From contig JALGVI010000018.1 in assembly GCA_029838215.1 (NCBI GenBank), forward strand, positions 1 to 64,000: DNA of 64,000 nucleotides, in the 5' to 3' direction. Under the pieces are notes generated by a model. The model was not told the DNA's origin. It saw nothing but the letters and a program-made list of their open reading frames with translations, and made no database searches. Below are positions 24,129 to 24,804 of this stretch, piece by piece; within the stretch, counting starts at the first letter, position 1, and every line of letters starts with the position of its first letter. The stretch is from Candidatus Helarchaeota archaeon. GTDB taxonomy: Archaea; Asgardarchaeota; Lokiarchaeia; Helarchaeales; RDOG01. Both the position numbers and the translations under genes were made by a program.

Positions 24129-24583
24129 GTTAATCACTTAATTCTAATATCATTCCTTATATTATTCATAAATAATGAATTTGGTTCTTTCCTATCATTT
24201 CCGATAAAAATTCTGTTCATCCAAAAATTGCTAGGAGTGAACTTGATCTAATCATTCAATAAGATTCGTCCTTAAATACTTATCTTTTCAGGTTAGTCCT
24301 TCGTGATGTTAAACTTGCTCATTCTTCTCTTACCACGCGGTCAATTTCCTACGTGTATATTAGGTCCGTTCCAAGGAAACTCGGGATTTTTTTCGGTGGC
24401 ATGAATTGATTGATATTCCTGCTTCAATTTTAATTTAATGGAACGATTCTTTGATTATCAACCGTTAAATTTCAGTTAATGAAAAATTTAAAAATTGTTA
24501 TGTCGTTAAATCATTATCGTTAAAGGAATGTTAAACACTACTTTAACAGAAGATATTGCTATGTTACCGAGCCGGGCGCCGAA

Positions 24584-24706
24584 TTAAGCCTGGACGCGGT
24601 CTTGATGGTATTGTTGTGGGCGACCCAACGAGAAGTCTTGATGGCTGTCCTTTCGGGGACGGTCATAGGTCCTGGGAACCATCCGTTCTCATCCCGAACA
24701 CGGTAA
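24584..24706 (+). rRNA. rrf: Circularly permuted 5S rRNA (3' half precedes 5' half; precursor about 24562-24725)
   Basis: The 3' part (UUAAGCCUGGAC...GGCUGUCC) comes first, then U-UUCG-G, then the 5' part (GGACGGUCAUAG...CAUCCCGAACACGG). The complementary flanks form a BHB motif. Confidence 0.92.
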
Positions 24707-24804
24707 AGCGCGGCTCGGCATCTAACACAATTCAAGCATTGCATCATTTTGTTTTTTCTCAACTATAAATCTTCATTTCACCAATTATTCCGCGCTTTTT
24801 ATGT

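What the first reader, a model, noticed from the sequence alone, without database searches (positions are those of the whole stretch)
24562..24725. Circularly permuted 5S rRNA gene with a bulge-helix-bulge processing site, predicting a spliced circular 5S
Seen: the 5S 3' half starts at 24584 (UUAAG-CCUGGAC helix II, loop E GUA/GAA, helix IV) and ends in the helix I strand GGCUGUCC (24643-50). U-UUCG-G (24651-56) links it to the native 5' strand GGACGGUC (24657-64), an 8-bp helix I capped by a UUCG tetraloop. The 5' half continues to loop C (CAUCCCGAAC) and ACGGUAA (24706). The flanks pair (CCGAGCCG 24567-74 with CGGCUCGG 24711-18) and form a BHB: central helix GCCG 24578-81 / CGGU 24701-04, with 3-nt bulges AAU 24582-84 and AAA 24705-07, each 3' of the helix. 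Cutting after the second bulge base and ligating gives ...GAACACGG-UA-AUUAAGCC..., a normal-length helix III with its 2-nt bulge and compensatory A-U/U-A pairs. Known: the archaeal tRNA splicing endonuclease and RtcB process BHB motifs, and permuted tRNA genes and a permuted, circular SRP RNA (Thermoproteus) exist. Inference: this 5S matures as a 123-nt covalent circle, possibly reopened at the UUCG loop. I am not aware of a described genomically permuted 5S gene. Standard 5S models would see only two fragments.
Basis: partly seen in the sequence, partly recalled or inferred. Interest (0 to 1): 0.96.

Follow-up and report, generated by a model that had tools for sequence, protein, structure and literature searches.

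The report
Permuted 5S rRNA gene, ring-forming
This Asgard (Helarchaeales) archaeon encodes its only detectable 5S ribosomal RNA back half first, between tRNA-intron-type cut signals, so a normal 5S can form only if the transcript is cut and re-joined, most likely into a 123-nt ring; the same layout occurs in most Asgard lineages sampled and explains why their 5S genes look "missing".

Summary
Window 24567-24718 (+) holds a circularly permuted 5S rRNA gene: 3' half (24584-24650), U-UUCG-G cap closing helix I (24651-56), then 5' half (24657-24706). Leader and trailer pair around it into a bulge-helix-bulge (BHB) motif.

- Rfam's 5S model sees only two sub-threshold halves, and the 94%-complete genome has no colinear 5S.
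- Cutting after the second nucleotide of each bulge and joining gives a 123-nt RNA. It matches a profile of colinear Asgard 5S genes as one full-length hit.
- A covariance model of the permuted precursor hits 89 of 151 sampled Asgard genomes (21 families). These include the closed Heimdallarchaeum genomes, whose authors could not find a 5S gene. 48 other genomes have colinear genes, and no genome has both.
- In 51 of 54 loci the BHB rule restores the colinear length exactly, from three cut registers. The flank helix covaries freely.
- The genome encodes a two-subunit, crenarchaeal-type splicing endonuclease and RtcB.

The permuted gene and its conservation are shown. Cleavage, ligation and the ring are inferred, because no RNA run holds this locus. 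The BHB is relaxed on the exon side.

This scan has flagged the same feature before on other DNA (98 notes in at least 77 genomes). I found no paper describing it.

The parts
24529..24536 (+). Candidate TATA-like box (TGTTAAAC), about 30 nt upstream of the leader helix. It is one of several (C/T)GTTAAA copies in the spacer.
   Evidence: Read from the sequence and inferred only. Relatives carry A/T-rich TATA-like boxes at similar distances. No transcription start data exist.
24567..24577 (+). Leader strand of the outer helix H1 (CCGAGCCG, then G, then GC).
   Evidence: It pairs with 24708-24718 at 10 of 11 positions, with one G.G mismatch. A close relative in a marine-sediment run has a different, fully complementary flank pair. 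Across 53 distinct loci there are 52 different 8-mers, and 64% pair at 7 or more of 8 positions against 2% for mismatched leader and trailer.
24578..24581 (+). Leader strand of the 4-bp central BHB helix (GCCG). It mimics the 5' strand of 5S helix III.
   Evidence: It pairs with CGGU at 24701-04. The central helix is 4 of 4 in 45 of 53 distinct loci and covaries with helix III.
24582..24584 (+). Bulge 1 (AAU). The predicted cut lies between 24583 and 24584.
   Evidence: It follows the canonical BHB geometry. The cut position is inferred from the rule for the archaeal splicing endonuclease and is validated in silico by exact junction restoration.
24584..24650 (+). 5S 3' half: loop B, helix II 3' strand, helices V/IV with loop E (GUA/GAA), and helix I 3' strand.
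   Evidence: RF00001 half hit. nhmmer to a colinear Asgard 5S profile matches HMM positions 44-112. The helices are supported by compensatory changes in alignment A1.
24651..24656 (+). Cap U-UUCG-G that joins the native 3' and 5' ends and closes helix I.
   Evidence: helix I columns 80-87/101-108, with covariation. A 4-nt cap was found in 44 of 58 loci, and 31 of those are UNCG.
24657..24706 (+). 5S 5' half: helix I 5' strand, loop A (CAUAG), helix II 5' strand, helix III and loop C (CCCGAAC), ending in ACGGUA-A.
   Evidence: RF00001 half hit of 22 bits. nhmmer matches HMM positions 5-48.
24701..24704 (+). Exon strand of the central BHB helix (CGGU). It overlaps the 3' strand of helix III (ACGG, 24700-24703).
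24705..24707 (+). Bulge 2 (AAA). The predicted cut lies between 24706 and 24707.
24708..24718 (+). Trailer strand of the outer helix H1 (GC, then G, then CGGCUCGG).
24747..24757 (+). T-rich run (TTTTGTTTTTT), a candidate archaeal terminator about 30 nt after the trailer.
   Evidence: Read from the sequence and inferred. Similar T-runs follow the trailers of relatives.

Best explanation
Window 24567-24718 is the functional 5S rRNA gene of this Helarchaeales genome, and it is encoded in circularly permuted order. It is transcribed on its own from an 886-nt intergenic spacer.

Proposed pathway:
1. In the precursor, leader and trailer pair into an 11-position helix.
2. A 4-nt leader copy of the helix III 5' strand pairs with the helix III 3' strand. 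This presents two 3-nt bulges four base pairs apart, a relaxed BHB.
3. The two-subunit splicing endonuclease (EndA) cuts after the second nucleotide of each bulge (24583|24584 and 24706|24707).
4. RtcB joins the 2',3'-cyclic phosphate end at 24706 to the 5'-OH at 24584.
5. Helix III then re-forms. The product is a 123-nt covalently closed 5S RNA with a native loop B / helix III junction and a UUCG-capped helix I, and the ring itself serves in the 50S subunit.

Shown: the permuted gene, its 5S fold, its conservation, the absence of a colinear copy, the BHB geometry and covariation, exact in-silico restoration, and the presence of the enzyme genes.
Inferred: cleavage, ligation, and that the ring is the mature form.
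For: - Swapped half hits to RF00001 and no hit over threshold in the window or the genome. A whole-genome nhmmer search finds only these two halves.
- The re-joined product gives one hit of 56.1 bits over HMM positions 5-112 of 119 to a profile of 19 colinear Asgard 5S genes. The genomic order gives 26.0 and 13.4 bits in two pieces.
- RNAalifold on 29 precursors recovers helices I, II, III, IV and V. 25 of 29 pairs show compensatory changes.
- Precursor model R1 scores 124 bits here. It hits 89 of 151 phylum genomes in 21 families at 49-144 bits. The 48 genomes with a colinear 5S are in other families, and none has both.
- Named records with the layout include Heimdallarchaeum aukensis and H. 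endolithica (closed genomes, 2 copies each), Odin-, Njord-, Jord-, Hel- and Promethearchaeota.
- The authors of the closed Heimdallarchaeum genomes wrote that 5S genes 'could not be predicted' (PMC8813620).
- The rule 'cut after bulge nt 2' restores exactly the colinear junction length in 51 of 54 loci. The cut falls in three different registers, and it also works at a second permutation point in loop C.
- H1 covaries: 52 different 8-mers, 64% against 2% in the control. A near relative carries compensatory flank changes. Shuffle P is about 1e-5.
- The genome encodes a catalytic EndA (Y/H/K present; best PDB matches are crenarchaeal heterotetramer catalytic subunits), a non-catalytic paralogue, and RtcB.
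- Precedent: the permuted, BHB-processed, circular SRP RNA of Thermoproteus (PMC4731332).
Against: - No RNA data exist for this organism, so neither the junction nor the ring has been observed here.
- The exon-side helix of the BHB is missing (one U-A pair only). Leader pairing must also compete with helix III.
- 8 of 53 distinct loci have only 3 of 4 central pairs. Three f17 loci restore one nucleotide too many.
- A published survey states that archaeal 5S, unlike 16S and 23S, is not processed through circles (PMC12918454), although it did not examine permuted loci.
- The genome is 94% complete, so an unassembled colinear copy cannot be excluded for this genome alone.
- One family in the same class (f5, G017) has an ordinary colinear 5S.
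Confidence: 0.72

Rival explanations
1. The RNA is cut and ligated as above, but the ring is only an intermediate. A second nuclease opens it at or near the helix I cap and yields a conventional linear 5S, as happens for circular pre-16S/23S intermediates and permuted tRNAs.
For: Permuted tRNA genes and circular pre-rRNAs are re-linearised in known systems (PMC4267664 discussion; PMC12918454 background). A few relatives carry long insertions in the cap, such as G029 with about 30 nt, that might be removed.
Against: There is no second BHB or conserved cleavage motif at the cap. The cap is a 4-nt loop directly closing helix I in 44 of 58 loci, and 31 of those are UNCG. This is a signature of a retained structural loop, not of a spacer. 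Helix I pairs covary right up to the loop.
Confidence: 0.1
2. The precursor is trimmed at the flanks, by EndA or another nuclease, but is never ligated. The mature 5S would be a linear, permuted molecule with a capped helix I and a nick between helix III and loop B, comparable to the permuted mitochondrial 5S of brown algae.
For: Permuted 5S rRNAs that stay permuted exist (Valach 2014, PMC4267664). All helices except the 2-bp extension at the junction are intact without ligation.
Against: Without ligation there is no reason for the two cut sites to sum to exactly the colinear length. Yet 51 of 54 loci do so from three registers, and a second permutation point does so too. EndA products held in one helix are the standard RtcB substrate, and RtcB is present. 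The bulge nucleotides retained (AA + G/A/U) rebuild the conserved AAG of loop B.
Confidence: 0.1
3. The locus is a pseudogene, a rearrangement or an assembly artefact, and the true colinear 5S lies in the unassembled 6% of the genome.
For: The genome is a 170-contig MAG at 94% completeness with 6% contamination, and rRNA genes are often missing from MAGs.
Against: The same layout occurs in 89 genomes, including closed chromosomes, with compensatory evolution of every helix and of the flanks. Three independent metagenome assemblies carry it in the same order. No genome combines permuted and colinear genes.
Confidence: 0.02
4. A different BHB register in the window is used: helix GCCGG/UCGGC, central GCGC/GCGC, bulges CGA and GGC. 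It would give a 132-nt product with 9 extra nucleotides at the junction.
For: An exhaustive scan finds this register with a 5-bp outer helix and 4 of 4 central pairs.
Against: The product would break the 5S junction. The register is absent from the same-family relative G001 and from the near relative in run X2, whose flanks differ. Every relative conserves the GCCG-AAU / CGGN-ARA register.
Confidence: 0.02

Closest known systems
Permuted, circularised SRP RNA of Thermoproteus tenax / T. uzoniensis (Plagens et al. 2015, eLife, PMC4731332)
   Same: An essential, universal structured RNA is encoded 3' part first. No canonical gene can be found. The termini are processed at a BHB-type site by the tRNA splicing endonuclease and ligated into a functional circle.
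   Different: It is a different RNA, and it is confined to one genus, whereas this layout covers most of a phylum. In Thermoproteus the circle was shown by RNA-seq, northern blots and in vitro cleavage. Here it is inferred.
Circularly permuted tRNA genes (Cyanidioschyzon merolae, Soma et al. 2007; review PMC3978253)
   Same: The layout is 3' half, short linker, then 5' half. There is a BHB at the junction of the flanks, and expression goes through a circular RNA made by the splicing machinery.
   Different: The tRNA circle is re-opened by RNase P and tRNase Z at the linker. No such signals are seen at the 5S cap. The 5S is an rRNA, not a tRNA.
Circular pre-16S/pre-23S rRNAs and circular or permuted mature 23S in archaea (PMC12918454; Pyrococcus furiosus, PMC7758197)
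   Same: BHB motifs in a processing stem formed by leader and trailer, EndA cleavage, RtcB-type ligation, and an rRNA circle that may be the form present in the ribosome.
   Different: Those genes are colinear, so circularisation joins the native ends. Here the gene is permuted and ligation creates an internal, conserved junction that is needed for the 5S sequence itself. That literature states that 5S is not processed this way.
Permuted mitochondrial 5S rRNA of brown algae and other stramenopiles (Valach et al. 2014, PMC4267664)
   Same: It is a 5S rRNA in which helix I is closed by a hairpin and the ends lie elsewhere. It is missed by standard 5S models.
   Different: It is organellar. The ends lie at the three-way junction, there is no BHB and no re-joining, and the RNA stays permuted. 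Here the halves are truly swapped and the flanks carry splice signals.
Minor circular 5S species in Sulfolobus and Halobacterium (Danan 2012 as cited in PMC12558985)
   Same: These are covalently circular RNAs derived from 5S rRNA in archaea.
   Different: They come from colinear genes, have heterogeneous junctions and low abundance, and were proposed to be degradation-related. They are not needed to make a functional sequence.

Membership tests
5S rRNA (Rfam RF00001) | Three-way junction with helices I-V, supported by covariation | tested here: met
   RNAalifold on 29 permuted precursors recovers helices I, II, III, IV and V. 25 of 29 pairs show compensatory changes.
5S rRNA (Rfam RF00001) | Conserved loop A (CAUAG), loop C (CCCGAAC), loop B (UAAGC) and loop E (GUA/GAA) motifs | tested here: met
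   All are present in the window and are invariant or nearly invariant columns in A1.
5S rRNA (Rfam RF00001) | Colinear order scoring over the curated gathering threshold (38 bits) | tested here: not met
   There are no gathering-level hits. The two halves score 22 and 14.2 bits in swapped order.
5S rRNA (Rfam RF00001) | Full-length match once the halves are re-joined | tested here: met
   nhmmer against a profile of 19 colinear Asgard 5S genes gives one hit of 56.1 bits over HMM positions 5-112 of 119. There is no indel at the junction. cmsearch of RF00001 on the re-joined letters could not be run with these tools.
5S rRNA (Rfam RF00001) | Presence in the large ribosomal subunit | not testable with these tools
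   No RNA or structural data exist for this organism.
Archaeal bulge-helix-bulge (hBHBh') splice motif | Two 3-nt bulges on opposite strands, each 3' of a 4-bp central helix | tested here: met
   GCCG/CGGU with AAU and AAA. The central helix is 4 of 4 in 45 of 53 distinct loci.
Archaeal bulge-helix-bulge (hBHBh') splice motif | Outer helix on the leader/trailer side | tested here: met
   10 of 11 positions pair here. There is strong covariation across loci and in a near relative.
Archaeal bulge-helix-bulge (hBHBh') splice motif | Second outer helix (h') on the other side of the central helix | tested here: not met
   Only U24585-A24700 can pair. Relatives have 0-3 pairs. The motif is therefore a relaxed bulge-helix-loop form.
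Archaeal bulge-helix-bulge (hBHBh') splice motif | Cleavage by the splicing endonuclease | not testable with these tools
   The enzyme genes are present: a catalytic subunit with Y/H/K, a non-catalytic paralogue and RtcB. Two EndA-domain genes occur in nearly all 151 phylum genomes.
Permuted RNA genes expressed through a circle (tRNA, SRP RNA) | 3' part, short linker closing the native terminal helix, 5' part, and no colinear copy | tested here: met
Permuted RNA genes expressed through a circle (tRNA, SRP RNA) | Cut and ligation at the flanks restore the canonical sequence | tested here: met
   In silico, 51 of 54 loci give the exact colinear length, from three cut registers. Loci with the second permutation point do so too.
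Permuted RNA genes expressed through a circle (tRNA, SRP RNA) | RNA reads across the ligation junction / exonuclease resistance | not testable with these tools
   No RNA run holds this stretch.

The most novel reading that the evidence does not exclude
Most Asgard archaea, the closest known prokaryotic relatives of eukaryotes, build their ribosomes with a covalently closed circular 5S rRNA made by the tRNA-splicing machinery from a back-to-front gene. The arrangement is old: 21 of 27 sampled families have it. It has since evolved, with the cut site sliding over three registers, a second permutation point in loop C, added BHB introns in loop C, and at least one lineage with a colinear gene inside a permuted class.
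Probability: 0.55. Interest if true: 0.93.

Novelty: new variant of a known kind. Interest (0 to 1): 0.88.

Why it matters
5S rRNA is universal, and its gene is treated as trivially recognisable.

- The finding shows that standard annotation fails across most of a phylum. It resolves the "missing 5S" of closed Asgard genomes (PMC8813620). It also matters for MAG quality standards that require a 5S gene.
- It makes an essential ribosomal component depend on the tRNA-splicing endonuclease and RtcB.
- It predicts a ribosome with a ring-shaped 5S, contrary to the published statement that archaeal 5S does not pass through circles.
- Because these are the nearest archaeal relatives of eukaryotes, it bears on how rRNA processing was organised before eukaryogenesis.
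- It is directly testable in cultured Lokiarchaeia.

Tried and rejected
- RNA evidence: the look-up of sequencing runs listed no RNA holder for this locus, only four DNA runs with small shares. Expression and the junction could therefore not be tested.
- The weak RF00001 hit at G000:C144:16857-16968 (15.7 bits) is AT-rich noise with no hit to the Asgard 5S profile.
- RNAalifold on rotated, re-joined sequences mixed with colinear ones gave a poor consensus because of ragged ends. I used the genomic-order alignment instead.
- The MFE fold of the precursor gets the BHB right but misfolds the 5S body. I did not use it for the 5S structure.
- The pattern scan of 185,579 species genomes returned 61 stretches. 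Under model R1, 36 are strong permuted 5S loci. Most carry Asgard labels or 'uncultured archaeon'; three carry other submitter labels. 'Thermoproteota' S9B3_HD70 is the contig of G098, a genome of this phylum, and 'Deferrimicrobium' is the G003 sequence. 'Thorarchaeota' QM1B.68 looks like the Heimdall-type sequences.
- The bacterial, Bathyarchaeota and Desulfurococcales hits in that scan are ordinary colinear 5S genes or chance matches. No permuted 5S was found outside Asgard, but the pattern is narrow.
- EndA copy number does not separate permuted from colinear families. Both have two genes.
- The sigma-70 promoter and intrinsic-terminator scan is uninformative for an archaeon.
- The alternative 132-nt BHB register was rejected.

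Full report
**1. Observation**

The sequence at 24562-24725 (+) is exactly as described. In genomic order it reads as follows:
- leader CCGAGCCG-G-GC (24567-77)
- GCCG (24578-81)
- bulge AAU (24582-84)
- a 5S 3' half running from loop B (UAAGCC) through helices II, V and IV and loop E to the helix I strand GGCUGUCC (to 24650)
- U-UUCG-G (24651-56)
- the helix I 5' strand GGACGGUC, loop A CAUAG, helix II, helix III / loop C (CCCGAAC) and ACGG-UAA (to 24706)
- then A-GC-G-CGGCUCGG (to 24718)

Rfam finds no family over threshold anywhere in the window. In E-value mode it reports two RF00001 fragments in swapped order. The 5' half lies at 24655 onward (22 bits) and the 3' half at 24551-24653 (14.2 bits).

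The MFE fold of the 164 nt forms the outer helix, the AAA bulge and the 4-bp GCCG/CGGU helix (z = -2.6). Flank shuffles reach this BHB at this register about once in 100,000 trials.

The locus sits alone in an 886-nt spacer between a DUF1512 gene and an adenosine-kinase-like gene. It is not in an rRNA operon.

**2. It is the genome's 5S**

The assembly (3.62 Mb, 170 contigs, 94% complete) has no RF00001 hit over the cut-off. The only other weak hit, on C144, is noise. A whole-genome nhmmer search with a profile of 19 colinear Asgard 5S genes finds only the two halves in this window.

I applied the archaeal rule (cut after the second bulge nucleotide on each strand) and joined 24706 to 24584. 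This gives a 123-nt sequence. It matches that profile as one hit of 56.1 bits over positions 5-112 of 119. In genomic order it gives two hits of 26.0 and 13.4 bits that split at profile position about 48-52.

The junction reads ...GAACACGG-UA|A-UUAAGCC.... It has the same length as colinear genes.

**3. Conservation**

Among 30 relatives in the same class, only one genome (G017, family f5) has a colinear 5S. The rest show paired sub-threshold half hits. Reading them shows the same layout.

RNAalifold on 29 precursors in genomic order (alignment A1) recovers helices I (capped), II, III, IV and V. 25 of 29 pairs show compensatory changes.

I built a covariance model (R1) from A1. It scores 124 bits on the window. 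It hits 89 of 151 evenly sampled genomes of the phylum at 49-144 bits, in 21 families.

RF00001 finds colinear genes over threshold in 48 other genomes, in families f10, f15, f19, f13, f29 and f5. A 49th hit, in G126, is really a permuted locus. No genome has both kinds.

A pattern scan of 185,579 species genomes, re-scored with R1, names the carriers:
- Candidatus Heimdallarchaeum aukensis and H. endolithica (closed chromosomes, two copies each)
- Odinarchaeota
- Njordarchaeum
- Jordarchaeum / Jordarchaeales
- Helarchaeota Hel_GB_A
- Promethearchaeota / Promethearchaeia

Hel_GB_A is identical to G005, which is in the same order as the window's genome. The window is therefore Helarchaeales.

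Hits outside Asgard in that scan are ordinary colinear 5S genes or chance matches.

Contigs of three unrelated metagenome runs carry the window's gene in the same order at 90-99% identity and without joints. This removes the mis-assembly rival.

**4. The BHB**

I located the motif in 57 loci, of which 53 are distinct.
- The central helix is 4 of 4 in 45 loci and 3 of 4 in 8.
- The outer helix has 52 different 8-mers. It pairs at 7 or more of 8 positions in 64% of loci. Leaders matched with other loci's trailers reach that in only 2% of trials.
- The near relative in run X2 replaces the window's ...GCCGG/...GCGGC flank segments by GUGAU/AUUAC. This keeps the outer helix and removes the G.G mismatch.
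- The leader bulge is AAG, AAA or AAU in 46 of 53 distinct loci. The trailer bulge is AAA, GAA or AGA in 37 of 53.

The leader strand of the central helix is a copy of the helix III 5' strand. The BHB and the mature helix III are therefore alternative pairings of the same exon strand.

The helix expected on the exon side of the motif is missing or only 1-3 bp long. The motif is thus a relaxed bulge-helix-loop form.

By established knowledge, such forms are cut by the heterotetrameric crenarchaeal-type endonuclease but poorly by homotetrameric or homodimeric euryarchaeal enzymes. The genome encodes the following:
- a 190-aa catalytic subunit with the Tyr/His/Lys triad; its best solved relatives are the catalytic subunits 3p1z_B, 3ajv_B, 2cv8_A and 2zyz_B, which I recall as crenarchaeal enzymes because the search output does not name the organisms
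- a 219-aa paralogue lacking the His
- one RtcB

Two EndA-domain genes are the rule across the phylum, in permuted and colinear families alike.

**5. Evidence for ligation and not merely trimming**

I aligned all predicted products to the colinear profile. In 51 of 54 loci with the common permutation point the junction has exactly the colinear length. The cut falls in three different registers relative to 5S numbering: |AGUU in 19 loci, A|GUU in 28 and AG|UU in 7. Only three f17 loci carry one extra nucleotide.

Four Lokiarchaeales genomes analysed in this way (G011, G013, G016, G027) have a second permutation point 5' of loop C (...CCCGGUC|CCAUCCGAA...). G156 shows the same layout but was not analysed. 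There too the same rule restores the exact length.

Two cut sites that move but always sum to the native length are expected if the ends are joined. They are not expected if the ends stay free.

**6. Ring or re-opened?**

The linker between the native ends is a 4-nt loop closing helix I directly in 44 of 58 loci. Of these, 31 are UNCG, and UUCG alone accounts for 23. Helix I covaries up to the loop. No BHB or other conserved signal lies there.

This favours a retained cap, that is a ring. It does not prove it.

**7. Literature**

Seven full-text searches found no paper on a permuted or obligatorily circular archaeal 5S. The relevant papers are these:
- PMC8813620 says 5S genes 'could not be predicted' in the closed Heimdallarchaeum genomes.
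- PMC4731332 describes the permuted circular SRP RNA of Thermoproteus.
- PMC4267664 describes permuted mitochondrial 5S rRNAs that stay permuted, and reviews permuted tRNA genes.
- PMC12558985 reports minor, heterogeneous 5S circles from colinear genes.

This scan's own notebook holds 98 earlier notes of the same feature in at least 77 other genomes. Some claim that environmental RNA contains the re-joined form. I could not test those claims and do not count them as evidence.

**8. Verdict**

- The permuted gene is real and functional (about 0.97).
- EndA/RtcB processing to a re-joined 5S is likely (about 0.8).
- The ring as the mature form is probable (about 0.6-0.7).

It is a new variant of a known kind: a permuted RNA gene rescued by the splicing machinery. 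Here the RNA is a universal rRNA and the arrangement spans most of the Asgard phylum.

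Noticed in passing
L011:1418-1634 (G013), L013:1418-1634 (G016), L006:1485-1702 (G027), L018:1479-1726 (G011), L197 (G156): Some Lokiarchaeales have a second permutation point. The gene starts inside loop C (C|CAUCCGAAC...) and ends at ...ACCCGGUC, with the same GCG-CUGG-AAC / CCGG-UCA-CGC BHB. Neighbouring genera use the common point after helix III. Re-joining again restores the exact colinear length.
   Followed up: partly
L193 (G008), L194 (G007), L201 (G009), L026 (G025), L191 (G119, family f25): These loci carry a 30-nt BHB intron inside loop C of the permuted 5S (UCCG-AAN-hairpin-CGGG-AAC). Excision gives the consensus CAUCCGAA|CCCGG. These 5S RNAs would therefore need two rounds of splicing-type processing. 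I know of no described archaeal 5S intron.
   Followed up: partly
L004:1501-1620 and L027:825-944 (G017, family f5, same class as the window): This genome has two ordinary colinear 5S genes (58 bits) inside an otherwise permuted class. The sequence is nearest to the re-joined Lokiarchaeia 5S and shares the A-U/U-A pairs next to helix III with the window. That suggests either a reversion or several independent permutations.
   Followed up: partly
L189 (G044, family f17): A second permuted 5S copy begins about 40 nt after the trailer of the first, so the permuted genes are in tandem. Tandem duplication is the textbook route to circular permutation.
   Followed up: no
L018 and L197 (helix IV/V), L020 (G019, helix IV/V), L021 (G029, helix I cap): About 30-nt insertions, drawn as extra hairpins, sit in helix IV/V or extend the helix I cap of otherwise typical permuted 5S genes. 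They could be expansion segments or further introns.
   Followed up: no
window 24463-24549: Repeated (C/T)GTTAAA motifs lie upstream of the leader. The copy at 24529-24536 sits where a TATA box would be expected. In Lokiarchaeales (family f4) the leader also carries a conserved small hairpin between an outer AACCACA/UGUGGUU helix and the 3-bp GCG/CGC helix next to the BHB.
   Followed up: no
L022 (G001), L063-L066 (family f6), L083 (G034): A tRNA-like gene lies directly downstream of the permuted 5S (GGGGUCGUGGUCUA...GGGCUCCAGA...). It is interrupted by long inserts, which are probably introns.
   Followed up: no
L120 (DATKTP010000169.1), L170 (JAPDJY010000015.1), L139 (JBHLQZ010000003.1): Contigs labelled Deferrimicrobium (a bacterium), Thermoproteota and Thorarchaeota carry strong Asgard-type permuted 5S genes (113-127 bits). 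The permuted 5S could serve as a marker for mis-binned or mislabelled contigs.
   Followed up: no
window 24652 and 24635-24643, in runs X1-X3: Near relatives in soil, marine-sediment and rhizosphere metagenomes differ at a few core positions. One is the cap (U24652C in all three). The flanks differ completely but remain complementary.
   Followed up: partly
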